Positions 1,138 through 43,255 of a DNA stretch of 43,313 nucleotides are shown in pieces. This stretch comes from a virus. The stretch lies in the UHGV virus genome UHGV-0213395. One strand, given 5' to 3'. The position numbers and the translations under genes are program-made. The notes beneath the pieces are model-generated. The model was not told the DNA's origin and did no database searches. It saw nothing but the letters and a program-made list of their open reading frames with translations. Numbering within the stretch: position 1 is the stretch's first letter; each line of letters begins with the position of its first letter.

Positions 1138-1364
1138 CTTCAAAATACAACCGAACAATGACAAACACTCACGGCAGCACTATGACCGTAGACGTTTACG
1201 ATGTTCTCCGTGCCTTCGACATCCGTGACCCCGCACTACAGCACGCATTGAAGAAGTTATTGTGCATGGGTCTTCGCGGGCATAAGGACACCGGAACCGA
1301 CTTAGCAGAAGCAATTGAAAGTCTGGAGAAGTTACGGGAGTATCGAAGTAATATTGATGAGTGA
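1134..1364 (+). CDS. hypothetical protein (76 aa), coupled to upstream phosphoesterase gene
   Basis: ATGA start/stop overlap with preceding ORF; followed by terminator hairpin at 1369-1388. Confidence 0.55.
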   Translation: MTSKYNRTMTNTHGSTMTVDVYDVLRAFDIRDPALQHALKKLLCMGLRGHKDTGTDLAEAIESLEKLREYRSNIDE

Positions 1365-1368
1365 GAAA

Positions 1369-1388
1369 AAGGCCCCGAAAGGGGCCTT
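1369..1388. terminator. bidirectional rho-independent terminator (AAGGCCCC-GAAA-GGGGCCTT)
   Basis: Perfect 8-bp GC-rich stem between convergent genes; A-run upstream gives a U-run on the minus strand, AGTTTTA downstream on plus. Confidence 0.7.
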
Positions 1389-1392
1389 AGTT

Positions 1393-2565
1393 TTATGCGT
1401 AGGTGATACGTTGAATTACGATAGACGACTGGTACTGATTGCCGGTAGCCTGGCCTTCAATGGACTGAGTGATTGACTCAGGCCCACCAATCTCAGGTGT
1501 AACCGCCGTAAGCTCTGCACGTTTCAAACTGAAAGACATAGCCCCGTTTACCCCTGCCAGAATAGAGTTAATCTCTACCTGCTGCTCGTTGATAAACTTC
1601 TGAATCATCGCCATGTCGTACAGCTTGCCAGAGATAGAGAATGTGTTAGCTGCGCGTCCACGTTCGACGAACGCCACGCTACTGTTACCGAGTTCGAACT
1701 GCGCGGAAGCTCCGTTGTCGTTGGTGATGGTGAGAGTATCGCAACGCAACGGCGTGGAGCCATCGAACACCGACACATCTACCGACGAGAACGGCTCATC
1801 GGTGAACGTAACCTGAGAGAAATCAGAGCCAGACGGCGGCGCGGTAAGAATCTCCTGACTCAGGCCGATGAACGGGAAGCTGCCGGTGACCATGGCGTTA
1901 ACCGCCTGCTCTACGGTAAAGCCAGAGATTTCCACACCTTTGGTCAGCATGTACGCGTACGGGTTACCACACTGGCCCTTGAACCACGTCAGGATGGAGA
2001 ACGTCTTACACGCGTTACCGGTTTCCAGCTTGTCGCCAGTTTTTGCGTCAGTGGTTACTGTCTCTGCTGTCAGCGTGTGCTGAATACCTGCGCCCGTAAC
2101 TACCAGAGCGGAAACCGCGGTCACGATAAACGGTTTTGCGTTGTCGCCGGTTAAGCCGGTGAACGCAATAAGGTCGCCAACTTCTACACCGTCAGTAATG
2201 AAGCTACCGGCAGCGCGGGTGAATGTTTTACCTGCTGGGGCGACCGTAATTTTGGCGCCAGTAATCTCTACCCCAGCTTGCCACGTAGAAGTCATCGCTC
2301 CCGCAAGGAAATCATCCTGGCTACGAGAGCTAAGTTCGATGGCATACTCCCCGCTAACCTGCTTGTTACCGGTTCGGATGGATGTAGTTTCACGGCTGCC
2401 GTCCAGTTCGTTGGAAGTCAGTGCATCGCGGGTTACAGCGGGAACGCCGCCCGTGTTACGCAACGGCGACCATACCGGGTTAGTCGGTGTTACGCCAGGG
2501 GTAGTTTCCACCACATAGAATTGCGCGGTATTCGCGCCCTTAAAAGGAGTTGTAGCCATATTCAC
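1393..2565 (-). CDS. major tail (tube) protein candidate (390 aa)
   Basis: Last large gene of the head-neck series, in the position of the tube protein ahead of chaperone and tape measure genes; Thr/Gly/Val-rich. Positional call. Confidence 0.5.
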   Translation of the reverse strand: MNMATTPFKGANTAQFYVVETTPGVTPTNPVWSPLRNTGGVPAVTRDALTSNELDGSRETTSIRTGNKQVSGEYAIELSSRSQDDFLAGAMTSTWQAGVEITGAKITVAPAGKTFTRAAGSFITDGVEVGDLIAFTGLTGDNAKPFIVTAVSALVVTGAGIQHTLTAETVTTDAKTGDKLETGNACKTFSILTWFKGQCGNPYAYMLTKGVEISGFTVEQAVNAMVTGSFPFIGLSQEILTAPPSGSDFSQVTFTDEPFSSVDVSVFDGSTPLRCDTLTITNDNGASAQFELGNSSVAFVERGRAANTFSISGKLYDMAMIQKFINEQQVEINSILAGVNGAMSFSLKRAELTAVTPEIGGPESITQSIEGQATGNQYQSSIVIQRITYA

Positions 2566-7783: not shown

Positions 7784-7865
7784 AGTCAGTATGTCCCCTG
7801 GACGTTGGAATCCGGGCCACCCGGATTTACATGTCAAGAATAAATTATTCCAACATGCAAGGCAA

Positions 7866-8129
7866 CTATTCCAGAATATTCCTCACGTAATCCTGCAACA
7901 TGAACACTTTCAGTCTCAGTTGCCGTACGCATTCAGCATTCTGAACGTCGACGGCCAAATCCTCATCAGCGTCGCTACTTGGCTGCGCCAGTTTGCACGG
8001 CGGCTGCATCATCGTCGTATCCGGGGATGGAATTGGCGTTGGCGACGGCGCGGGACTTGAGCTGCACGCGCTCAGGGTCAAAAGTGCACACGCTGCGACC
8101 AGGCGTTTTAATGTACTTAACGACTTCAC
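7866..8129 (-). CDS. o-spanin (Rz1-like outer-membrane lipoprotein, 87 aa)
   Basis: Signal peptide with lipobox LSAC, Pro-rich mature region; starts inside the i-spanin gene in another frame. Confidence 0.55.
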   Translation of the reverse strand: MKSLSTLKRLVAACALLTLSACSSSPAPSPTPIPSPDTTMMQPPCKLAQPSSDADEDLAVDVQNAECVRQLRLKVFMLQDYVRNILE

Positions 8130-8361
8130 GGGTAATCACCTCTGATTTCGTCTTGCCTTCGTTGTCAGCGGCGGCGGCCTTCGATTCATCCTGCTGCTGC
8201 CGTTGTGTTTTCTTCGCTAACTCAGCCTGTGCTTTCTGCTGTTGCTGCGAAACGAGATTAGCCCGGCCTTCGTTCCATCCGCTGCGATACTGGTAGATGC
8301 CGTGTGCGTAAACCAGGATGATGAAACATGCTCCTGCTACGACAGTTGCTTTAAGATTCAT
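7975..8361 (-). CDS. i-spanin (Rz-like, 128 aa)
   Basis: N-terminal transmembrane segment then charged coiled-coil region; overlapped arrangement with o-spanin ORF. Confidence 0.6.
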   Translation of the reverse strand: MNLKATVVAGACFIILVYAHGIYQYRSGWNEGRANLVSQQQQKAQAELAKKTQRQQQDESKAAAADNEGKTKSEVITREVVKYIKTPGRSVCTFDPERVQLKSRAVANANSIPGYDDDAAAVQTGAAK

Positions 8362-8680
8362 GTTTCCCCTTTCTCGATAAGTAAAGCCCCGCCATAAAGC
8401 GGGGCGCTAGTCCTTATCATTTAAACATAGAAACGGCGTAATCTCAGTAAACCAGTTACTTTTTACACAAGCAATAGAGTATGGCCCTTCCGAACGCGTC
8501 AGCGTAACTACACTCAGGACTTACGTCCCGCTCCGTTACCTGCCCGCGCCGCGGTCGCTTGTTCATACTTCACAAGCTCAGGTGGAGCTTATCATATTTT
8601 TAGTGAAAAGTCAACTATTCGAATAGTTTATTCCAACATTTACAATTCGGAGGAATAACTGGAATACGTAAATAAATAGT

Positions 8681-8709
8681 TTGCACACCCCAATATAATA
8701 GGGTACTAT
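8681..8709 (+). promoter_or_regulatory. sigma70-type promoter TTGCAC-N17-TACTAT (conserved early promoter, copy 1)
   Basis: Near-identical ~33 bp to copies at 42872-42900 (+), 20239-20267 (-) and 19065-19093 (-); AGGAGG SD and ATG at 8737 downstream. Confidence 0.55.
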
Positions 8710-8736
8710 TCAGTTAACTTAAACAGGAGGTGAAAA

Positions 8737-8940
8737 ATGTATGCAATTTGCGAAGTAGTTCAAGAGTTCGATGAAGAGTTCGACGGTGACTTGTGCCGGG
8801 TTAAAAAGGTTCTGCAGGTTTTCCCTGACGCAATGTCTGCTTACAAGGCATTAGATATATTTGAACCTGGAAGATACGGGGATTATGACACTGTTCTGAG
8901 GGTTGTCCATGAGCAGGATTTAAACACAAGATTCCGTTGA
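8737..8940 (+). CDS. small acidic protein (67 aa), moron-like antisense gene
   Basis: Own promoter and AGGAGG SD; terminator at 8946-8966; antisense to head operon; lower GC than flanks. Confidence 0.6.
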   Translation: MYAICEVVQEFDEEFDGDLCRVKKVLQVFPDAMSAYKALDIFEPGRYGDYDTVLRVVHEQDLNTRFR

Positions 8941-8945
8941 AAACT

Positions 8946-8966
8946 AAGGCCCCATAATGGGGCCTT
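8946..8966. terminator. bidirectional terminator (AAGGCCCC-ATAAT-GGGGCCTT)
   Basis: Perfect 8-bp stem followed by TTTAT; between convergent ORF ends at 8940 and 8970. Confidence 0.7.
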
Positions 8967-8969
8967 TTA

Positions 8970-9431
8970 TCATTCTGGCTTAGTAACCTTCGCCGCTTTG
9001 CTTACCGCCTCTACTCCATCGGCATCAGTAACTTTAACGAAGTATTCGCCGACCGCATTAACCGTCAGAGACAGAGCCTCCTCAGGCGCATTCACCACTT
9101 CCTTACCGTCTTTGTACCAGGTCAGAGAATACGGCGCTTTGCCTGCCTTAACCTCGACAGTGATGGTTGCGCTGCCGCCCGCCAGTTCAGCGTCCTGCGG
9201 TTGCGCAGAGAAATACACGTCGCCAGCGTCCGCCAGATACGGAATTTCATAAAGCATACCAGCGGCGGGCAACGCAATACCGGTTTTATCTGCAAACGGC
9301 ATATCATCTACCGGTGTACCGAGTACACTTTCGTCCTCAATAAATACCACGTTCTCGCCAGAGCCAGACACGCGGGCGTACTGGACTACGCGACGAGACG
9401 GTACGTCAGTTACTTTGAAAAAGCCCATCAT
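8970..9431 (-). CDS. Ig-like domain protein (153 aa)
   Basis: C-terminal APYSLTWYKDGKEV...GEYFVKVTDADG Ig-like signature, paralogous to the domain in 5308..5658. Confidence 0.55.
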   Translation of the reverse strand: MMGFFKVTDVPSRRVVQYARVSGSGENVVFIEDESVLGTPVDDMPFADKTGIALPAAGMLYEIPYLADAGDVYFSAQPQDAELAGGSATITVEVKAGKAPYSLTWYKDGKEVVNAPEEALSLTVNAVGEYFVKVTDADGVEAVSKAAKVTKPE

Positions 9432-10507
9432 TATTCCCCTTTCAGATAATCAGCAACACGTTTATCGAGTTCCGCCATCTGCTTAAGCGTGAGCGGATTC
9501 CCGAAACCATCTACAGATATTACGCGAAACTCTTCCGGCGATATACCGCTGTTACGGAAAATCTTACCTCGCACCGGGCCGAGCGCCTGGTCCTGAAACC
9601 ACGCCGGTTGTTGTTTAAGGAACTCGTAGTAAGTGGTGTCTGCGCTTACCTGAGTGCCACCTTCCGCGCCTTTAGCCGCGCGTTTTGCGCCTTTATCGAG
9701 GAAGTCGAACTCGGAACTGATTACCGGAGCCGTGCACGACCGGCAGTTCGGATGGGCTGGGGGCATCGGCCCCTTACCAATTTCCCACGTCATCCCGTCT
9801 CTGACCCTGCAAATTGTACTGGTGCGGCTGTCAAGCGTTGACACCCACTCGTACTTCTCGATGATGTCGTCGTTCTGGCGGTACGTCTCGTTACGGGCCT
9901 CGTTGGATACGTGGGACAGCGCGGTGCGGATTACCGTAGTCGCGTTACGTTCTGAGATGTCGGCTAGTCCACCAGCGCCAACAACATTCTTAACAATCTG
10001 CCGTGTGGTTTGACCTTGCACAAAGCCCATCTTAACTCCAGTTACAAGACGTGCTACTTCCGTTTCGCCCCATCCAGACATCAGCTTGGTGAAATCAACG
10101 GGCTTGTCGCTCAATGATAATGGTTGAAACTCGGCAGCGGCCCATACCTGCTCAGCGGTAGGCGTAACAAATTCCGCGTTTACGTTGGCGGTCAGTGTCT
10201 TTACGTTCCACTCCGCCTCATACGCCGCCAGTTCCTTAAGGTCTTCTGTCAGCTTTGTTTGCCAGTCACCCGTAAGCCCCGTCAGAGCTTCTTCAAGGTC
10301 ACGTAACAGTTTATTCAGCCGTGCGGTGCTGCGGCCGTCGTCGCCGAATAGCAGCACCTGCCGTTTGATTTCGTCCCGCATTTCCTGAATGAATGGTGCG
10401 AGGTCTTTTACTTCACCGGATGCGGCGCGTTGCAGCCAAATCTGGTGGCTGATTAGTGATGTCAGTAAGCTCATAGATAAACCCTGTGGCGCTAAAGTTA
10501 ATAGCAT
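9431..10507 (-). CDS. head morphogenesis (minor head) protein candidate (358 aa)
   Basis: Gene directly after portal, the usual place for SPP1 gp7/Mu F-type proteins. Positional call. Confidence 0.55.
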   Translation of the reverse strand: MLLTLAPQGLSMSLLTSLISHQIWLQRAASGEVKDLAPFIQEMRDEIKRQVLLFGDDGRSTARLNKLLRDLEEALTGLTGDWQTKLTEDLKELAAYEAEWNVKTLTANVNAEFVTPTAEQVWAAAEFQPLSLSDKPVDFTKLMSGWGETEVARLVTGVKMGFVQGQTTRQIVKNVVGAGGLADISERNATTVIRTALSHVSNEARNETYRQNDDIIEKYEWVSTLDSRTSTICRVRDGMTWEIGKGPMPPAHPNCRSCTAPVISSEFDFLDKGAKRAAKGAEGGTQVSADTTYYEFLKQQPAWFQDQALGPVRGKIFRNSGISPEEFRVISVDGFGNPLTLKQMAELDKRVADYLKGE

Positions 10508-10543
10508 ACTATAAGAAAGCCCCTTTCGGGGCTATAGGTGAAC

Positions 10544-17223: not shown

Positions 17224-17517
17224 TTATTTATGACGCCAGATGTATTGTCGTCTCTGCGGTTTAGTCGGAATATCATCGTACCCCAGCGATTTCCAGTAAT
17301 TAAATAGCCGGTTCGCGATAGCTGCGCGTTCCTTTGTTTTAAACTCTCCTAGATTCACGGCCTTTCCGTTCTGGAATCCACAGGCGCGGATAGCTTTACG
17401 CCGTTCTTGTATCTCTGGGTACAGCGCGTTACGGCGGCGCTTGTGTATACGTGTCTTCGCTCTCGGTGACAGCGGCGCAAGGCCGCTTCGTTTCAGGATG
17501 TCAGTTGCTAACGACAT
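17224..17517 (-). CDS. hypothetical basic protein (97 aa)
   Basis: Start moved to ATG at 17517, 1 nt past the stop of the upstream paralog gene. Confidence 0.45.
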   Translation of the reverse strand: MSLATDILKRSGLAPLSPRAKTRIHKRRRNALYPEIQERRKAIRACGFQNGKAVNLGEFKTKERAAIANRLFNYWKSLGYDDIPTKPQRRQYIWRHK

Positions 17518-17786
17518 CACTCCACCCCTTCCACATGTGTAACTGACCCACAGTTCGCGCACTCGACGTAATCAGGGTACTGGTCTTTGTATTTCTGTAG
17601 CTCGGCGTTTACTTCTGCCAGTCTCGACACAAGCCCTTCTATTTCCTTGTCGTCGTCGGCTAGACGTTCCTGGTAATAGTCGTCCAGTTCCTTATAGCTG
17701 TCGTACTCTACATAATCGCCGTATGCGTACTCAGCCATCTCAGGCTCTGGCAGGCCCCACGCTTTTACCTCATATCTCTGTACCAT
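17517..17786 (-). CDS. small protein, tandem paralog B (89 aa)
   Basis: Starts MVQRY, ends ELQKYKDQYPDYVECANCGSVTHVEGVE; C-terminus identical to neighbour A. Confidence 0.5.
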   Translation of the reverse strand: MVQRYEVKAWGLPEPEMAEYAYGDYVEYDSYKELDDYYQERLADDDKEIEGLVSRLAEVNAELQKYKDQYPDYVECANCGSVTHVEGVE

Positions 17787-17989
17787 TACTCCACCCCCTC
17801 CACATGTGTAACCGACCCGCAGTTCGCGCACTCGACGTAATCCGGGAACTGGTCCTTGTATTTCTGTAACTCGGCTTCAACTTCCAACAGCTTTAGGTCA
17901 AGATTCTGGTAGTCCTCAAACTTAACCCACTTCCCGTGGCGGTCAATGAAATGGTTGTCGGACCCATACTTAGAATATCTCTGTACCAT
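17786..17989 (-). CDS. small protein, tandem paralog A (67 aa)
   Basis: Start moved to internal ATG (MVQRYSKYG...); ends ELQKYKDQFPDYVECANCGSVTHVEGVE. Confidence 0.45.
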   Translation of the reverse strand: MVQRYSKYGSDNHFIDRHGKWVKFEDYQNLDLKLLEVEAELQKYKDQFPDYVECANCGSVTHVEGVE

Positions 17990-20238: not shown

Positions 20239-20267
20239 ATAGTATCCTATTATGTTGGGGTGTGCAA
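20239..20267 (-). promoter_or_regulatory. conserved early promoter, copy 4 (TTGCAC-N17-TACTAT, minus strand)
   Basis: rc reads CTTGCACACCCCAACATAATAGGATACTATTCA, differing at about 2 positions from the plus-strand copies. Confidence 0.55.
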
Positions 20268-23594: not shown

Positions 23595-23613
23595 AAGGGG
23601 CTTTAAGCCCCTT
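23595..23613 (-). terminator. terminator hairpin at end of XRE regulator gene
   Basis: AAGGGGC-TTTAA-GCCCCTT; U-run on the minus strand; the regulator stop codon lies in the loop. Confidence 0.5.
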
Positions 23614-23818
23614 CACCTAACGCCAGCCACTTGGCGTCTACTTCCAGAACTTCCGCCAGTTTGAACAGCGTTGCCGGGCGGACGTCCTGAGTTACTCCAA
23701 GTGCCAGTTGGTTAATCGCGCCCTGGGAAACGCCGGTCAGGGCCGCCAAACGGCGCTGGGAGATGCCGAGTTCTTTGCGGCGTTGTTCTACACGGATGCC
23801 TAGTTCAGATGGTTGCAT
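23603..23818 (-). CDS. Cro/CI-type (XRE family) HTH transcriptional regulator (71 aa)
   Basis: GISQRRLAALTGVSQGAINQLALG HTH_XRE signature; AAGGAG SD; antisense and monocistronic within the replication module. Confidence 0.75.
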   Translation of the reverse strand: MQPSELGIRVEQRRKELGISQRRLAALTGVSQGAINQLALGVTQDVRPATLFKLAEVLEVDAKWLALGEGA

Positions 23819-23882
23819 GTCAATTACTCCTTAGTCAGTTGATATGTGAATAGTACCATATTAATTATTTTAGAAAAGCCCA

Positions 23883-27489: not shown

Positions 27490-29666
27490 GCTACTTATAC
27501 CTGGACTTTGAAACATTCTCCGAAGCCGATTTAAAGAAAGTCGGCTCCTACGCTTACGCCGAACACCCGACTACCGAAGTGCTTATCTGCACATATGCTT
27601 TTGACGACGAGCCTGTGCGGGTATGGGATTGCACCGACGGCAGCGACATGCCGGGTGATTTGCACCGCGCACTGCGCCGCCTGGTTAAGCCGAACAGTCG
27701 TATTAAGATGGTGTGGCACAACGGCTCAATGTTCGACAGGCTCATCATGAAACACTGCTGGGGCTTTGATATTCCCGTAAGCAACACCATTGATACGATG
27801 ATTTGGGCGTTTCGTCACGCGCTGCCGGGTTCACTTGATGCGCTGTGCGAAGTGCTGGGCGTGTCTGCAGACAACGCGAAAGATAAACGCGGCAAGGCTC
27901 TGATTAAGCGTTTCTCTAAACCGACGCCGAAGAACTACAAAATCCGCCGCTACACCGCAGAAACTCACCCTGACGAGTGGGCGATGTTCATCAGGTACGC
28001 CGTGAGCGACATCACTGCGATGCGTGAAGTCTTCCATAAGCTGCCGCGTTGGGGTAACTCCGAGTTCGAAGACCGTGTACTGGAACTGGACCAGTTGATT
28101 AACGACCGTGGGTTTAAGGTTGATGTGACGCTGGCGGAAGCCGCGATTGAAGCCGTGGAAAAACACAAGGCCCAGCTACAGGAAGAAGCACAGCGCAAAT
28201 ACGGCGGCTCGCTTACTGGTAAAGACTTCCTGCCGATTCTGCGTGAACTTGCACCAGCGCACCGCATCCACAACGCGCAGAAGTCTACGCTTAACGACCT
28301 GTTGGCGGATGATGATTTACCGGACGACGCACGCACGATTATCGAAATGCGCCTCGGGGCCGCGTCCACAGCGTCAACGAAATATAACCCGCTGCTGTTA
28401 GGGCGCTCGTCGGACGACCGCCGTCGTGGTTGCATTCAGTACGGCGGAGCCAAGCGTACATTACGATTTGCCGGTAAAGGATTTCAGCCGCAGAACCTCG
28501 CGCGTGGGTACTATCACGATGATGAACTGGATAAAGGTATTTCAGCGTTACTTAAGGGCCGCGCGCATCGCCGTTTCGATGTCGCTAAGCTAACGGCATC
28601 GACGGTGCGTAGCTGCATTATCCCGGAAGCCGGAAAAAAGTTTGTCGTCGCCGATTACTCTAACGTTGAAGGTCGGGGGCTTGCGTGGCTGGCAGGCGAA
28701 GAAACCGCGCTAGATACGTTCCGCGCCGGGCTGGACATTTACTGTGTAACCGCGGGTAAGATGTTCGGCATGGAGCCGGATTACATTAAGAAGGAACGCA
28801 AAGACTTGCGCCAGATTGGTAAAGCCTGCGAGCTTGGCCTCGGCTACGCTGGTGGTGTTGGCGCTTTCGTTCAGTTTGCTAAGAACCTCGGACTTGACCT
28901 TGTTGATATGTCAAAAACAATGGACGGTACTTTCCCGGACCACATCTGGGCGGCTACTGCACGCGGCTATGAATGGGCACGTATTCAGGAAGCCAAGCGA
29001 CCGCCGCGACCCGGGGAGAAGGATGACCGACCATCGTATATTCTTGATAAGAAAGTGTGGCGTACCTGTGACGCTATCAAGCGTATGTGGCGAGAGTCAC
29101 ACCCTGAAACAGTAGCTTTCTGGCGAGATATTGAAGACGCAGCTATGGCCGCTATCCGCAATCCAGGTAAAGAGTTCACCGCGGGGCCTAGGGGGGTTAA
29201 GTTTTCGCGCAACGTAGAGACAGACAACAACGGCAACAAAGTCGCCGGCTGGTGGTTGCGCATGACGTTGCCGTCGGGTCGCGTTATGTCTTATCCGGGC
29301 GTCGGGTTAAGCGTGTCGAAAGAAACAGACGAAGATGGAAAAGTGTCTACTAACGTACGCATCAAGTACCAGGGGGAGAACCAGTTAACCCGTCAGTGGG
29401 GCTTCCAGTACACCTACTCTGGTAAACTCGTGGAAAACTGTACTCAGGCGCTGTGCCGTGATTTGCTGGCCAATGCACTGCTGAACGTTGAAGCAAACGG
29501 CTATCCTATTGTGCTTCACGTACACGACGAAATTATCTGCGAAACACCAGATACGCCAGAATACAATGTTGCAGAGCTTGAGCGGTTGATGTGCGAATTA
29601 CCGGAGTGGGCGGAGGGGTTCCCTCTTGTAGCGGAAGGTGCGGAGATGAAGCGTTATGCCAAGTAA
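27486..29666 (+). CDS. family A DNA polymerase with N-terminal 3'-5' exonuclease domain (726 aa)
   Basis: Exo motif YLDFETFS; Pol A motif A VVADYSNVEGR, motif B RKDLRQIGKACELGLGYAGG, motif C VLHVHDEIICE. Start moved to ATG 27486 (AAGGAAAAAG SD). Confidence 0.85.
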   Translation: MSYLYLDFETFSEADLKKVGSYAYAEHPTTEVLICTYAFDDEPVRVWDCTDGSDMPGDLHRALRRLVKPNSRIKMVWHNGSMFDRLIMKHCWGFDIPVSNTIDTMIWAFRHALPGSLDALCEVLGVSADNAKDKRGKALIKRFSKPTPKNYKIRRYTAETHPDEWAMFIRYAVSDITAMREVFHKLPRWGNSEFEDRVLELDQLINDRGFKVDVTLAEAAIEAVEKHKAQLQEEAQRKYGGSLTGKDFLPILRELAPAHRIHNAQKSTLNDLLADDDLPDDARTIIEMRLGAASTASTKYNPLLLGRSSDDRRRGCIQYGGAKRTLRFAGKGFQPQNLARGYYHDDELDKGISALLKGRAHRRFDVAKLTASTVRSCIIPEAGKKFVVADYSNVEGRGLAWLAGEETALDTFRAGLDIYCVTAGKMFGMEPDYIKKERKDLRQIGKACELGLGYAGGVGAFVQFAKNLGLDLVDMSKTMDGTFPDHIWAATARGYEWARIQEAKRPPRPGEKDDRPSYILDKKVWRTCDAIKRMWRESHPETVAFWRDIEDAAMAAIRNPGKEFTAGPRGVKFSRNVETDNNGNKVAGWWLRMTLPSGRVMSYPGVGLSVSKETDEDGKVSTNVRIKYQGENQLTRQWGFQYTYSGKLVENCTQALCRDLLANALLNVEANGYPIVLHVHDEIICETPDTPEYNVAELERLMCELPEWAEGFPLVAEGAEMKRYAK

Positions 29667-29787
29667 ACTGATTATCGCGGTACTGGCGGGATTTGCCGCC
29701 GGTGTCTACTGTCACGAGGGACAATACGGCATGATGGTTGCCATATTGGGCATGTTCATCGCAATTTATATGTGGGTGCTGGAATGA
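29656..29787 (+). CDS. small membrane protein (43 aa)
   Basis: ATG overlaps 3' end of polymerase gene; hydrophobic IIAVLAGFAAGV ... VAILGMFIAIYMWVL. Confidence 0.3.
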   Translation: MPSKLIIAVLAGFAAGVYCHEGQYGMMVAILGMFIAIYMWVLE

Positions 29788-29873
29788 AAATTTACTGGTT
29801 TTATGAAGACGACTGCCGAATCTGCCCGCGCTGCGGGATTGAGCATACGAAACGTGAGGGGTGCGTATTATGA
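29784..29873 (+). CDS. 29-aa zinc-ribbon-like peptide
   Basis: CRICPRC ... EGC cysteine pattern; ATGA coupling on both sides. Confidence 0.25.
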   Translation: MKIYWFYEDDCRICPRCGIEHTKREGCVL

Positions 29874-30022
29874 CAATGTTTGTATTTAGGACCATAGTAA
29901 CCATGCTCGCACTGTTACTCGGTGCGGGAATAGCTGCTATGTTCTGTTACGGCCTGTTCTTTCAGTTTGCCGGTGTTGCCATTCTAGGCTGGGTTTTCCT
30001 TACCTGGATGCTGCGGTCATGA
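29870..30022 (+). CDS. small membrane protein (50 aa, 2 predicted TM segments)
   Basis: Hydrophobic throughout; ATGA overlap with VRR-NUC start. Confidence 0.3.
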   Translation: MTMFVFRTIVTMLALLLGAGIAAMFCYGLFFQFAGVAILGWVFLTWMLRS

Positions 30023-32734: not shown

Positions 32735-32868
32735 ACATCATAGCCCCGATTCCAGCATTGCAAAAACGTATCAAGGAACTCGAAGAGGAGGTTCTACGCC
32801 TACGGCAACAGAGAGATGCCGCTAATGCGCAACTGGCGTTTGTGCTGGAGAAGTTATCAGAAGAGTAG
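32731..32868 (+). CDS. small coiled-coil protein (45 aa)
   Basis: ATGA overlap with helicase stop; heptad-like KELEEEVLRLRQQ; followed by terminator. Confidence 0.3.
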   Translation: MNIIAPIPALQKRIKELEEEVLRLRQQRDAANAQLAFVLEKLSEE

Positions 32869-32872
32869 AGAA

Positions 32873-32893
32873 AAGGCCCCATTATGGGGCCTT
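32873..32893. terminator. bidirectional terminator (AAGGCCCC-ATTAT-GGGGCCTT)
   Basis: Perfect 8-bp stem between convergent helicase-operon and tailspike gene ends; T-rich on both sides. Confidence 0.7.
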
Positions 32894-32897
32894 AGTT

Positions 32898-34829
32898 TTA
32901 AGCTATAGATGGAGTTTGACGCCAATTCGCCCCGTCAAAAACGTACATTATAGTGTCTCCGCCCGCAATGGTCTTACCAACCGCCCCGTTATTTGCGATT
33001 CCACCAGACCCTGGATTATGGTTCATAACGAACGAGATAGCGGATGCGTTTCGGATTATTAGAAGAAAACCTGGCTTAACCGGCTGACCATAGTCGTCAT
33101 TAATAGCAATACTGCTGAATGAACTGCCGGCGGATATCGCGGTGACAGACACAACCCCAGAGGGCCCCAAACTGTCGCCAACAATCATTGTAGCCGCAGC
33201 GCCGCTAAGATTCTGTTCTTTATACCCCGGCCTAGGTTTGCCGTTTCCTATTACTTTCGCCTTAACAGATGATAATCTATTATTAAGATAACTGTTACCG
33301 AGATTCATTGTCATTAGGTCACTGCGGTATTGACGGACTAGTTGGATATTTGACCCGCTAAAAAGCCCTACGGCGGCGCTAACCTCAAACGCAGTATCGG
33401 CGGGAGCGCCAGGTTTCAGGGACCCATAGAATCCTGTTACCATCAGTTGTTCACAGAAACCTGCAGCCATAAATTTCTGGCTATTTACTGCGGTTATACT
33501 ATCTAAACTAACATTGTGCAACGTGCCAGCCGAAGTGCCTTCGACGAGCACATCCGCATAAGTAGATCCTGAATAATTTGCCCCAACAATTTGCACGTCA
33601 TTAGCTACGTTTTCGGACTTAATCCGCATATGTATAGCGGAATCGATGCTTTGTAAGTTTGCGCAGGTAATACGCTCAAGTTGTGCGGTTGTGCTGTAAA
33701 TCCAAACACCTTGACTGGAAACACCATTACCGACATTAATGTGCCCGTCCAGCACCACATTTTTTGCCGTGCTGAACTCACTATCAGATTTAATGATAAC
33801 GCCAGTATCACAGCTTACGGTTATTACGCCTCTGGCAACAACGTTTCTTGACTTAATCGCGAGGCCAAAAAGATTATAACCGCCAGTTATTTGAGATACA
33901 TGCGCGGAATCGTAGCCTTCAACAAGAACGCTGTGGTACGGGTCCGAACCGGAAAGGCCCGCGGCAACTACATCTTGAACAATACAAGACCCACCAGCAT
34001 AGTTATCGGTCGATAACACCAGACAATCTCCGGGGGAGCCTGTAGGCCTACGCACACCAAGTGACTTAATAATCACCTGGCTTGCGGAAAATCTTAAATT
34101 GCCAATTATAACAGACCCGTTAGACATAGAATTGGAGATAAGATTGTAATCAGGACGTCTGTCACCGATTATTGTTACGGGTGAAGTTATAATACCGCCA
34201 TTCCAAACATAAGATTTTGCGGGGATTCTTAACGCGATACCGTTGCTTGAGCAATAGTCAATAGCCTGTTGCAAAGGCGCGGTGTCGTCGGTAACACCAT
34301 CACCCACCGCGCCGAAATCATCGGGTGTCATATACCCTATTTTGAAATGGTCAACCTCGCCTTGCACTGTGCGACCCGAAGACGTACCGACTAGCCCTGC
34401 GCCAGTGCTTAGGGCCAAATCACGGCGCAATGCAGCTTCACTAACGGAAACCCATGCGGTCTGGCCTACTCCGCCCGTAGACGCCGGGGTTGAAGATGCC
34501 GGGATGGTTTTTGGCAGGGCACCTTTCCATGCATAATAGTTGCCGTCGCCTGATGGCCCTGGCCACAACACCGCCAGGTCAGCGTCGTTAACGCCCAAAG
34601 TCCCACCTGTTTCGAATGTGAATGGCGCAGGTCTGAACCCGGCGTCACGCAACACGGCCGGGAGCGTCTTCTGAGTCTGCCCTGTAACCTGATTTGTCGC
34701 GTAATCGATATCAGCACCCGTAGCTACACCGCCAGCTTTACCGGTGATAACCTCGGCTTCAAAAATTTGGTGTTTCTTGGCGGTTTGTAAATCCGCCAGG
34801 CTTAAAACGTCACCGCATCCGCTTGACAT
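32898..34829 (-). CDS. tailspike / tail fibre with beta-helix (pectate-lyase-like) domain candidate (643 aa)
   Basis: Last gene of tail module; Gly/Asn/Ser/Thr-rich repetitive composition typical of right-handed beta-helix receptor-binding proteins. Confidence 0.6.
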   Translation of the reverse strand: MSSGCGDVLSLADLQTAKKHQIFEAEVITGKAGGVATGADIDYATNQVTGQTQKTLPAVLRDAGFRPAPFTFETGGTLGVNDADLAVLWPGPSGDGNYYAWKGALPKTIPASSTPASTGGVGQTAWVSVSEAALRRDLALSTGAGLVGTSSGRTVQGEVDHFKIGYMTPDDFGAVGDGVTDDTAPLQQAIDYCSSNGIALRIPAKSYVWNGGIITSPVTIIGDRRPDYNLISNSMSNGSVIIGNLRFSASQVIIKSLGVRRPTGSPGDCLVLSTDNYAGGSCIVQDVVAAGLSGSDPYHSVLVEGYDSAHVSQITGGYNLFGLAIKSRNVVARGVITVSCDTGVIIKSDSEFSTAKNVVLDGHINVGNGVSSQGVWIYSTTAQLERITCANLQSIDSAIHMRIKSENVANDVQIVGANYSGSTYADVLVEGTSAGTLHNVSLDSITAVNSQKFMAAGFCEQLMVTGFYGSLKPGAPADTAFEVSAAVGLFSGSNIQLVRQYRSDLMTMNLGNSYLNNRLSSVKAKVIGNGKPRPGYKEQNLSGAAATMIVGDSLGPSGVVSVTAISAGSSFSSIAINDDYGQPVKPGFLLIIRNASAISFVMNHNPGSGGIANNGAVGKTIAGGDTIMYVFDGANWRQTPSIA

Positions 34830-42871: not shown

Positions 42872-42900
42872 TTGCACACCCCAATATAATAGGGTACTAT
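42872..42900 (+). promoter_or_regulatory. conserved early promoter, copy 2 (TTGCAC-N17-TACTAT)
   Basis: Identical over ~33 bp to the copy at 8681-8709; GAGG SD and ATG 42929 downstream. Confidence 0.55.
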
Positions 42901-42928
42901 TCACATGTAACTTACTGAGGAAATAATT

Positions 42929-43255
42929 ATGCGTAAATTAGTACTAGCTCTGGGTTTTATGTCTTTTGCTACTTTTGGGGCCCCGTGCGAACAGGTATTT
43001 AGTGAATCTGTTCTTATGACTTCTGGTGTGCTTGATAAAGCCGACCCTACTATTGTAAAGGCATTTAAGGACTCCACAGTCCGTGAATGCGAGGCCGCCG
43101 TAGATGTCGGTAAATCGGGCCTACCTCCGCAAGCCGTAACATACACGGTAATACGTTCGGTAGAGAAAACCGGAGACGCGTTTTACAGCCTTCTGACAGC
43201 CACCCGTCTGCAAATGGTAATGACTGGATGGGCAATAGGCGCAGAAAGTAAATAG
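42929..43255 (+). CDS. small secreted/periplasmic protein (108 aa, signal peptide)
   Basis: MRKLVLALGFMSFATFGA then PCEQ: cleavable signal peptide without lipobox; two Cys in the mature part; lower GC than flanks. Confidence 0.6.
   Translation: MRKLVLALGFMSFATFGAPCEQVFSESVLMTSGVLDKADPTIVKAFKDSTVRECEAAVDVGKSGLPPQAVTYTVIRSVEKTGDAFYSLLTATRLQMVMTGWAIGAESK

What the first reader, a model, noticed from the sequence alone, without database searches (positions are those of the whole stretch)
8681..8966. Second moron: 67-aa acidic protein driven by the conserved early promoter, antisense within the head operon
A self-contained promoter-SD-ORF-terminator unit sits on the opposite strand of the head genes and has lower GC than its flanks. 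The protein is small and acidic (MYAICEVVQEFDEEFDGDLCRV...). Such early-expressed small acidic proteins are typical candidates for host-takeover or anti-defence functions such as DNA mimicry or inhibitor proteins. Function is unknown.
Basis: partly seen in the sequence, partly recalled or inferred. Interest (0 to 1): 0.6.

Follow-up and report, generated by a model that had tools for sequence, protein, structure and literature searches.

The report
Swappable early-gene cassette, small acidic protein
This is a real, self-contained promoter-gene-terminator cassette in an E. coli phage that makes a 67-residue acidic protein of unknown target; it occupies a slot where related phages carry at least twelve other unrelated genes or nothing, so it is an ordinary optional accessory gene, though its function remains unknown.

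Summary
Window 8681-8966 contains a promoter-like site, a Shine-Dalgarno site, a 67-aa ORF (8737-8940, +) and a strong hairpin terminator. It lies on the strand opposite the head genes and has lower GC (0.41 against 0.51). The window is a Kagunavirus genome nearly identical to Escherichia phage Bas70.

The unit is a classical moron in a hypervariable slot. Relatives keep the promoter and terminator but carry at least 12 other unrelated genes between them, including a Dam-like methylase. About 37% of sampled relatives lack the whole unit. A Salmonella phage carries the same cassette in a second slot, between the MuF-like and portal genes.

The promoter occurs three times in the genome. Its -10 lies inside a 14-bp palindrome found at seven promoters, probably the operator of the phage's Cro-like repressor.

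The protein belongs to a small phage-only family of acidic 63-75 aa proteins, almost all ending in Phe-Arg. It is under purifying selection and has a confident beta-beta-alpha-beta model with no significant match to any solved structure.

DNA mimicry against restriction is not supported: all seven BASEL phages that carry the gene are reported as highly restriction-sensitive. The most likely role is an early accessory protein that binds a host or defence protein. The target is unknown.

The parts
8667..8969 (+). The whole exchangeable cassette (promoter, leader, ORF, terminator), about 300 bp
   Evidence: Left edge: the alignment with the empty slot of K1ind1 diverges after ...GGAATAACTGGAATA (about 8666) and resumes at ATTCTGGCTTAGTAACC. 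Similarity to the VSt10 cassette, which sits in a different slot, spans about 8670-8969.
8681..8709 (+). Promoter-like 29-mer TTGCAC-N17-TACTAT ('class A')
   Evidence: Three copies in the window (8681 +, 42872 +, 20239 -), 0 expected by chance. A fourth, looser copy lies at about 19064 (-). It matches only 7 of 12 sigma-70 consensus positions (one search did not list it).
8697..8710 (.). Palindrome AATAGGGTACTATT overlapping the -10; putative operator
   Evidence: AATAG-N4-CTATT occurs 7 times in the window against 0.03 expected. All seven lie at promoter-like sites upstream of genes. Two copies (one exact, one near) flank the Cro/C1-type HTH gene at 23603..23818.
8725..8730 (+). Shine-Dalgarno AGGAGG, 6 nt before the ATG
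   Evidence: Read directly from the sequence. The leader and SD are conserved in relatives that carry other cargo genes.
8737..8940 (+). 67-aa acidic protein gene (Bas70_0006 homologue)
   Evidence: ORF. Annotated as hypothetical in PQ850619. dN/dS is 0.23 against SHAK7858; in distant pairs synonymous sites are saturated while pN is 0.26-0.40. AF2 mean pLDDT 86.7.
8946..8969 (.). Hairpin terminator plus T-run; folds on both strands, so it probably also ends the convergent Hoc-like gene
   Evidence: Near-copies at 32868-32903 and 1359-1394. Conserved in relatives with other cargo genes, 3-5 nt after each stop codon in nearly all of them.
42872..43255 (+). Second unit with the identical promoter: a 108-aa protein with a signal-peptide-like N-terminus
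   Evidence: phrog_14165, unknown function.
23603..23818 (-). 71-aa Cro/C1-type HTH protein, candidate regulator of the operator-bearing promoters
   Evidence: Pfam HTH_3, E = 3.9e-13. Operator copies lie at 23849 (near-copy, in front of this gene) and 23893.

Best explanation
The feature is a roughly 300-bp autonomous, exchangeable expression cassette (a moron). It occupies a hypervariable slot between the Hoc-like decoration gene and the spanin genes of a Kagunavirus.

Proposed mechanism:
1. Host sigma-70 RNA polymerase starts at TTGCAC-N17-TACTAT. Copies of this promoter also drive the arm of small genes that starts at 20239 and a second moron at 42872.
2. The -10 lies inside a 14-bp palindrome shared by seven promoters. 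This palindrome is most likely the operator of the phage's 71-aa Cro-like HTH protein. If so, the gene is switched together with the early and replication genes and is probably shut off later.
3. A strong ribosome-binding site drives translation. A hairpin that folds on both strands stops this transcript and the convergent head-gene transcript.
4. The product is a 7.9-kDa acidic beta-beta-alpha-beta protein. Its size and lack of any enzyme-like features suggest that it binds and blocks a host protein, most likely a defence or DNA/RNA-handling protein. The invariant C-terminal Phe-Arg and the acidic hairpin turn are candidate contact sites.
5. The cassette spreads and is replaced by recombination in the shared promoter and terminator sequences.

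Shown by sequence: the anatomy of the unit, the repeated regulatory elements, slot variability, cassette mobility between slots, purifying selection, and the absence of known homologues.

Inferred: promoter activity and timing, the identity of the repressor, the binding-inhibitor mode of action, and the counter-defence role.
For: Anatomy.

Promoter: three copies, each upstream of a gene with a ribosome-binding site.

Operator: the palindrome occurs 7 times against 0.03 expected. The HTH_3 gene is flanked by two copies.

Slot variability:
- The promoter/SD and the terminator are conserved, while the ORF between ATG and stop is replaced.
- Alternative cargo includes proteins of 41, 55, 57, 63, 74, 78, 81 and 94 aa, a 173-aa clamp-like protein, a 179-aa endonuclease-VII-like protein, a 242-aa N6_N4 methylase, and a small membrane ORF followed by a 114-aa gene in HSE2.
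- The empty state lacks the promoter as well.
- In an evenly spaced sample of 43 related records that have both flanks, 5 carry this gene, 16 are empty and 22 carry other cargo.

Mobility: VSt10 carries a 63%-identical homologue in the slot between the MuF-like and portal genes. It has the same promoter core ATAATAGGGTACTATT and the same junction TGAAAACTAAGGCCCC. Other homologues lie in early or replication arrays: after PolA, next to a primase, and in small-gene arrays.

Protein:
- 18 clusters at 90% identity and 23 representatives at 50% identity among 1.84 billion proteins.
- Invariant D16, V22, A35, F66 and R67.
- 31 of the 32 members of 55-80 aa have net charge -3 to -9, and all 32 end in Phe-Arg.
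- dN/dS is 0.23; AF2 mean pLDDT is 86.7.

Accessory-gene context: the Dam-like methylase alternates in the same slot. In vB_Kpn2-P2 the upstream neighbour is a 2H phosphoesterase with a sub-threshold Acb1 match.
Against: - No expression data exist, and the promoter matches consensus poorly (7 of 12).
- Nothing identifies a target.
- The slot also holds cargo with no obvious defence link (an endonuclease-VII-like protein, a clamp-like protein, small membrane proteins), so position in the slot is weak evidence for counter-defence.
- Carriers Bas70-76 show no unusual resistance to the defence systems tested in PMC11990801.
- The only anti-defence neighbour, the Acb1-like gene, scores below the Pfam threshold.
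- The family was not found in the supplementary files of two published accessory-gene screens.
Confidence: 0.55

Rival explanations
1. DNA-mimic anti-restriction protein of the Ocr/ArdA/Arn type. The acidic surface would imitate DNA and block type I restriction enzymes or related nucleases.
For: The family is acidic, with pI 4.2-5.0 in 31 of 32 members. Expression appears to be early-type. A Dam-like methylase, which is an anti-restriction strategy, alternates in the same slot.
Confidence: 0.07
2. Modulator of DNA replication, recombination or a host nuclease. The protein would act with the phage replication module, for example by blocking a host exonuclease or repair enzyme, rather than acting against a dedicated defence system.
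For: In relatives L025 and L026 the homologue lies directly after DNA polymerase A, and its stop codon overlaps the start of an endonuclease-like gene (phrog_93). In vB_Kpn2-P2 it lies just upstream of the primase gene. Other cargo in the slot includes clamp-like and endonuclease-VII-like proteins.
Against: The position varies: head-module slots in Kagunavirus, VSt10 and Geezett, and after the endolysin gene in Shemara. No conserved partner gene was found. About 37% of close relatives do without any gene in the slot.
Confidence: 0.2
3. Competition between phages or superinfection exclusion. The protein would interfere with other phages or mobile elements in the same cell.
For: The companion moron with the identical promoter encodes a secreted-type protein, which is typical of exclusion functions. 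In HSE2 the slot holds a small membrane ORF followed by a 114-aa gene.
Against: The 67-aa protein has no signal peptide or membrane segment (sequence). There is no direct evidence either way.
Confidence: 0.1
4. The cassette matters mainly as a regulatory element. Convergent transcription plus a two-way terminator would insulate or time the head and lysis genes, and the encoded protein would be incidental.
For: The terminator folds equally well on both strands and lies 3 nt from the end of the Hoc-like gene. The unit converges on that gene.
Against: The protein is under purifying selection, and its family keeps its length, charge and C-terminus in unrelated genomic positions. Empty slots keep only a terminator and the phages are viable.
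Confidence: 0.05

Closest known systems
Morons (autonomous promoter-gene-terminator insertions between genes that are adjacent in related phages; concept of Hendrix and colleagues, cited from my own knowledge)
   Same: The unit has its own promoter-like site and terminator. It lies between two genes that are adjacent in relatives such as K1ind1. Its GC content is lower than the genome's, and its orientation is opposite to the surrounding late genes.
   Different: Classical morons were described in temperate lambdoid phages and are often expressed from the prophage. This is a virulent siphovirus. The unit shares its promoter and operator with the phage's own transcription programme.
PeSL regulatory cassettes of T4-like phages (PMC2839356, PMC4122927)
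   Same: Conserved promoter and stem-loop terminator sequences are repeated around the genome. They mark the end points of gene insertions, deletions and replacements between close relatives. The swapped genes are mostly small and of unknown function.
   Different: A PeSL is one short composite promoter-plus-stem-loop motif between tandem genes of one strand, in the large hyperplastic regions of myoviruses. Here the promoter and terminator sit at opposite ends of a single-gene slot, antisense to a late module of a 43-kb siphovirus, and the promoter carries a palindromic operator. Mini-circles were not examined.
Phage accessory regions and accessory genes (bioRxiv 10.1101/2023.04.06.535777; PMC12373910)
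   Same: This is a hot spot of highly variable, non-essential genes between conserved core genes. Known counter-defence genes (here a Dam-like methylase) sit among genes of unknown function.
   Different: This family was not found in the held supplementary files of either screen, so no phenotype is available.
Small acidic phage inhibitors (Ocr, Arn, T7 Gp2, anti-CRISPRs such as AcrIC8 and AcrIF9)
   Different: None of these similarities is significant. The profile comparison with T7 Gp2 is negative (probability 0.3%). No phenotype links the protein to any of their targets.

Membership tests
Moron | The gene is flanked by its own promoter and its own terminator | tested here: met
   Met at sequence level only. 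The promoter-like 29-mer occurs three times, and the hairpin terminator has -16.3 kcal/mol, z = -3.7. Transcription itself was not measured.
Moron | Inserted between two genes that are adjacent in related phages | tested here: met
   In K1ind1 and 15 other sampled relatives, only a terminator lies between the Hoc-like and spanin genes.
Moron | Nucleotide composition differs from the surrounding genome | tested here: met
   Cassette GC 0.41 against genome GC 0.51.
PeSL-type regulatory cassette | The conserved promoter and stem-loop motifs are present in several copies per genome | tested here: met
   Promoter at 8681, 42872 and 20239, with a looser copy at about 19064. Terminator at 8940-8971, 32868-32903 and 1359-1394.
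PeSL-type regulatory cassette | Gene insertions, deletions and replacements between close relatives end in these motifs | tested here: met
   At least 12 other cargo genes start 5-8 nt after the conserved SD (some bring their own leader). Nearly all end 3-5 nt before the conserved terminator; the Dam-like gene runs into it and hz69 has a longer gap.
PeSL-type regulatory cassette | A single short composite unit in which the promoter and the stem-loop are fused | tested here: not met
   The promoter (8681-8709) and terminator (8946-8969) are separated by the ORF, and no fused unit is seen in the window's slot. It therefore resembles PeSL-mediated shuffling but is not a PeSL.
PeSL-type regulatory cassette | Formation of mini-circles by recombination between motifs | not testable with these tools
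   Needs PCR or sequencing of infected cells or virions.
Accessory region / accessory gene | Variable, dispensable gene content between conserved core genes across related genomes | tested here: met
   In the sample of 43 records: 16 empty, 5 with this gene, 22 with other cargo. Flanks are 92-100% identical.
DNA-mimic anti-restriction proteins (Ocr/ArdA/Arn) | Strongly acidic protein | tested here: met
   Net charge -6, pI 4.5. In 31 of 32 family members of 55-80 aa the pI is 4.2-5.0.
DNA-mimic anti-restriction proteins (Ocr/ArdA/Arn) | Sequence or fold related to a known DNA mimic | tested here: not met
DNA-mimic anti-restriction proteins (Ocr/ArdA/Arn) | Protects the phage from restriction | tested here: not met
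   Indirect evidence: Bas70-76 all carry the gene and are reported as highly sensitive to RM systems (PMC11990801). The isolated gene has not been tested.
T7 Gp2-like RNA polymerase inhibitor | Detectable homology to Gp2 | tested here: not met
Anti-CRISPR proteins | Significant structural similarity to a known Acr | tested here: not met

The most novel reading that the evidence does not exclude
The 67-aa family is a previously unrecognised counter-defence inhibitor aimed at a non-restriction immune system of enterobacteria. Its acidic hairpin and invariant C-terminal Phe-Arg would plug the target. The promoter/terminator-bounded slot would then be a natural 'plug-in socket' through which Guernseyvirinae exchange such inhibitors, making the other cargo genes a ready list of new candidates.
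Probability: 0.3. Interest if true: 0.6.

Novelty: new member of a known kind. Interest (0 to 1): 0.4.

Why it matters
If the reading is right, this is a clean natural example, in small virulent siphoviruses, of a single-gene expression socket. A fixed promoter, ribosome-binding site and terminator stay in place while unrelated accessory genes are swapped in and out.

This gives three practical handles:
- A defined list of at least 13 candidate host-interaction or counter-defence genes (including this one) that can be tested in an isogenic background. Bas70-76 are available BASEL phages.
- A ready site for engineering payloads into Kagunavirus phages without disturbing core genes.
- A simple regulon for studying the transcription programme of this group: a 14-bp operator at seven promoters plus a Cro-like protein.

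The protein itself is a small family with no known fold relatives, so a target would be new information. Nothing found here suggests a new principle.

Tried and rejected
- **Pfam, 67-aa protein:** no hit.
- **PHROGs:** only a weak match to phrog_27256, of unknown function.
- **Rfam, 7800-9500:** only a sub-threshold chance hit inside the Hoc-like gene.
- **BFVD:** only uncharacterised phage proteins.
- **Profile against PDB sequences:** noise.
- **T7 Gp2 idea (same strand-strand-helix-strand order as I recalled it):** rejected by hhalign.
- **Conserved partner gene next to homologues:** none. The downstream genes in Geezett and vB_Kpn2-P2 are unrelated.
- **Literature search for the peptide sequence:** no paper.
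- **Supplements of two accessory-gene screens:** no match.
- **Paper search for transcriptomes of this phage group:** the terms were too general and returned nothing useful.
- **TATAAT at 8694-8699 as an alternative -10:** rejected, because no acceptable -35 lies 16-18 nt upstream in any of the three copies, and the conserved block starts exactly at TTGCAC.
- **Scan of IMG/VR for more family contexts:** only four loci, one of them informative.
- **One script timed out** and was rerun more simply.

Full report
**What the window is.** The region 8400-9300 is 99.9% identical to Escherichia phage MarieHeimVoegtlin_Bas70 (PQ850619). It matches 246 records of Escherichia and Salmonella phages of the Guernseyvirinae, genera Kagunavirus and Jerseyvirus. 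In Bas70 the ORF of the finding is annotated as hypothetical protein Bas70_0006. It lies between a Hoc-like head decoration gene and the Rz/Rz1 spanin genes, all of which are on the other strand.

**Checking the observation.**
- The ORF at 8737..8940 (+) encodes 67 aa. AGGAGG at 8725-8730 precedes the ATG by 6 nt.
- The hairpin AAGGCCCCATAATGGGGCCTT (8946-8966) with a T-run was found by the terminator scan. It folds at -16.3 kcal/mol (z = -3.7) and equally well on the minus strand. It can therefore also end the convergent Hoc-like gene, which stops at 8970.
- The proposed promoter TTGCAC-N17-TACTAT (8681-8709) matches only 7 of 12 consensus positions, and the consensus scan did not report it.
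- The same 29-mer nevertheless occurs at 42872 (+, identical) and 20239 (-, 2 mismatches), with none expected by chance. Each copy sits in front of a gene with a ribosome-binding site.
- GC falls to 0.36-0.43 across the unit, against 0.49-0.56 in the flanks. The cassette is 0.41 and the genome 0.51.
- The protein has 14 acidic and 8 basic residues and pI 4.5.

One correction: the unit overlaps no head gene; it fills an intergenic gap.

**The slot is hypervariable.**
- An alignment of the window with three relatives shows about 375 nt upstream (through the promoter, leader and SD) and the terminator downstream nearly unchanged. The sequence from ATG to stop is unrelated: 67 aa here, 74 aa in ZCEC5, 173 aa in TPH05A and a 242-aa methylase in Salmonella phage S100.
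- I then scripted a scan of every locus fetched. The cargo ORF starts 5-8 nt after the conserved SD in loci that share the window's leader; other cargo genes bring their own leader. In nearly all loci it ends 3-5 nt before the conserved terminator AAGGCCCC-loop-GGGGCCTTTTATCATTC. The exceptions are the Dam-like gene, which runs into the terminator, and hz69, which has a longer gap.
- Other cargo genes encode proteins of 41, 55, 57, 63, 78, 81, 94 and 179 aa. HSE2 holds a small membrane ORF followed by a 114-aa gene.
- Identifiable cargo: the 242-aa protein is an N6_N4 DNA methylase (Pfam E = 4e-30). The 179-aa protein matches an endonuclease VII PHROG. The 173-aa protein weakly resembles the polymerase III beta clamp. 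The remaining cargo genes are of unknown function.
- In K1ind1 and many other relatives the whole unit is absent, promoter included, and only a different terminator lies between the two flanking genes.
- In an evenly spaced sample of the 248 matching records, 43 have both flanks. Of these, 5 carry this gene, 16 are empty and 22 carry 11 other kinds of cargo, judged from span lengths and annotation.

The unit therefore meets the definition of a moron, and the site meets the definition of a phage accessory region (bioRxiv 10.1101/2023.04.06.535777).

**The cassette moves.**
- A tblastn search finds the protein in only 33 of 50,697 phage records. Twenty are Kagunavirus phages with the gene in this slot, including all seven BASEL isolates Bas70-76.
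- In Salmonella phage VSt10 a 63%-identical homologue sits in a different antisense gap, between the MuF-like head morphogenesis gene and the portal gene.
- That copy has the same promoter core ATAATAGGGTACTATT, a similar SD, and the same stop-to-terminator junction TGAAAACTAAGGCCCC. This delimits the mobile unit as about 8667-8969 of the window.
- Elsewhere the gene has other neighbours:
  - Relatives L025 and L026: directly after DNA polymerase A, with its stop codon overlapping the start of an endonuclease-like gene.
  - Klebsiella phage vB_Kpn2-P2: between a 2H phosphoesterase and a hypothetical gene, upstream of the primase.
  - Klebsiella phage Geezett: again antisense between the MuF-like and portal genes.
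  - Shemara: at the start of a run of small genes after the endolysin.
  - L036: in an array of small genes that also holds a weak relative of the 94-aa slot cargo.
- No partner gene is conserved.
- Swapping at shared promoter and terminator sequences is the behaviour described for PeSL cassettes of T4-like phages (PMC2839356, PMC4122927). Here, however, the promoter and terminator are not fused into one motif, so this works like PeSL shuffling without being a PeSL.

**Regulation.**
- The -10 of the promoter lies inside the palindrome AATAGGGTACTATT. The pattern AATAG-N4-CTATT occurs seven times in the window against 0.03 expected, and all seven are at promoter-like sites.
- Four sites have the TTGCAC form: 8697 and 42888 on the + strand, 20238 and 19064 on the - strand.
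- Three sites have a near-consensus TTGACA-N17-TATAGT/TATTAT form in front of the + strand replication genes (23893, 26576, 30282).
- A near-copy at 23849 precedes a 71-aa Cro/C1-type HTH gene at 23603..23818 (-) (Pfam HTH_3, E = 3.9e-13). That gene is thus flanked by two sites 44 bp apart, a typical autoregulatory layout.
- I infer that this protein binds the palindrome, and that the 67-aa gene is switched together with the small-gene arm and the replication genes. Timing and direction of control (repression or activation) are not shown.

**The protein.**
- The word-indexed search found 18 clusters. The exhaustive profile search of 1.84 billion representatives found 23 hits, nearly all of 63-75 aa.
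- D16, V22, A35, F66 and R67 are invariant. Of the 32 members of 55-80 aa, all end in Phe-Arg and 31 have net charge -3 to -9.
- dN/dS is 0.23 against SHAK7858. In distant pairs synonymous sites are saturated while pN is 0.26-0.40, so the protein is under purifying selection.
- AlphaFold2 gives mean pLDDT 86.7 and pTM 0.68, with a long beta hairpin (residues 2-12 and 17-29), a helix (32-41) and a third strand (53-58).
- BFVD returns only uncharacterised phage proteins, including the VSt10 homologue and a protein of Enterobacter phage EcP1.
- The family has no Pfam model. A recalled resemblance to T7 Gp2 was tested and rejected.

**What it most likely does.**
- The evidence supports an optional accessory protein under selection, expressed from a promoter of the phage's own programme. 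It is too small and featureless to be an enzyme, so binding and blocking another protein is the most economical mechanism.
- A counter-defence role is suggested by the arms-race-like turnover of the slot and by the Dam-like methylase that alternates there. A sub-threshold Acb1-like neighbour in one phage adds a little (19.3 bits against a cut-off of 27; the two HxT motifs of 2H phosphoesterases are present). This evidence is weak.
[quoted passage not shown] No DNA mimic resembles the model.
- A role tied to DNA metabolism is a serious rival, because several homologues sit in replication modules.

**Novelty and score.** Morons, accessory regions and promoter/terminator-mediated shuffling are all known. 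This is a tidy new instance in Guernseyvirinae, carrying a protein family of unknown function. I rate it a new member of a known kind, with interest 0.4. The most novel reading still open is that the family is a new inhibitor of a non-restriction defence system (probability about 0.3).

**Limits.**
- No expression, binding or phenotype data exist for this gene.
- The census rests on a sample of 60 listed records and 36 fetched loci.
- Oligomeric state and surface charge distribution could not be examined, because model coordinates are not exposed.
- Complexes could not be predicted with these tools.

Noticed in passing
window 8362-8666: The 305-nt intergenic block next to the slot is 96.7% identical between this E. 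coli phage and Salmonella phage S100, while the flanking genes are only 73-88% identical. It is absent from phage Jersey itself. It contains a perfect 16-bp palindrome AACTATTCGAATAGTT (8613-8628), a strong minus-strand terminator (8405..8386, -17.9 kcal/mol) and an annotated 36-aa ORF (8456..8566, -). The minus-strand RNA fold has z = -2.7, and there is no Rfam match. It could be a constrained non-coding element (small RNA or regulatory site) or a recently exchanged module.
   Followed up: partly
window 8697, 19064, 20238, 23893, 26576, 30282, 42888 (near-copy at 23849); HTH gene 23603..23818 (-): A 14-bp palindrome AATAG-N4-CTATT lies at seven promoter-like sites (0.03 expected by chance). 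A 71-aa Cro/C1-type HTH gene is flanked by two of them. Together they look like a phage-wide operator regulon.
   Followed up: partly
window 42872-43255: A second unit has the identical 32-nt promoter. It drives a 108-aa protein with a signal-peptide-like N-terminus (phrog_14165, unknown function), on the strand opposite the neighbouring tail genes.
   Followed up: partly
L028 2390-2760 (VSt10); L008 and L013 second sites; window 10508-10543: Relatives have a second antisense slot between the MuF-like and portal genes, with the same promoter core and terminator. In the window that junction is only 36 nt and holds a terminator-like hairpin AAAGCCCCTTTCGGGGCT.
   Followed up: partly
L030 2024-2485 (Klebsiella phage vB_Kpn2-P2): The gene just upstream of the family member is a 153-aa 2H phosphoesterase (HVT...HVT motifs). 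It is annotated as 'RNA ligase' and has a sub-threshold match to the Pfam anti-CBASS Acb1 model (19.3 bits, cut-off 27).
   Followed up: partly
window 29656-30022: In relatives the 68-aa homologue sits between the DNA polymerase A gene and the endonuclease-like gene. At that position the window instead has three small ORFs, two of them clearly hydrophobic (43 and 53 aa).
   Followed up: no
window 1359-1394 and 32868-32903: Near-copies of the slot terminator (GGCCCC-loop-GGGGCC with AACTAAGG/TTTT flanks) lie at two other gene-cluster boundaries.
   Followed up: no
window 17515-17615 and 17784-17884: A 101-nt direct repeat (89% identical) lies 269 nt apart within a run of overlapping ORFs of about 100 aa on the minus strand, which suggests tandemly duplicated small genes.
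   Followed up: no
L016 and L032 (OR594180, OR594183): The records for phages SHAK7693 and SHAK7858 carry an Autographiviridae/Kayfunavirus taxonomy line, although their sequence and gene order here are Kagunavirus-like. This is probably a labelling slip in the records.
   Followed up: no
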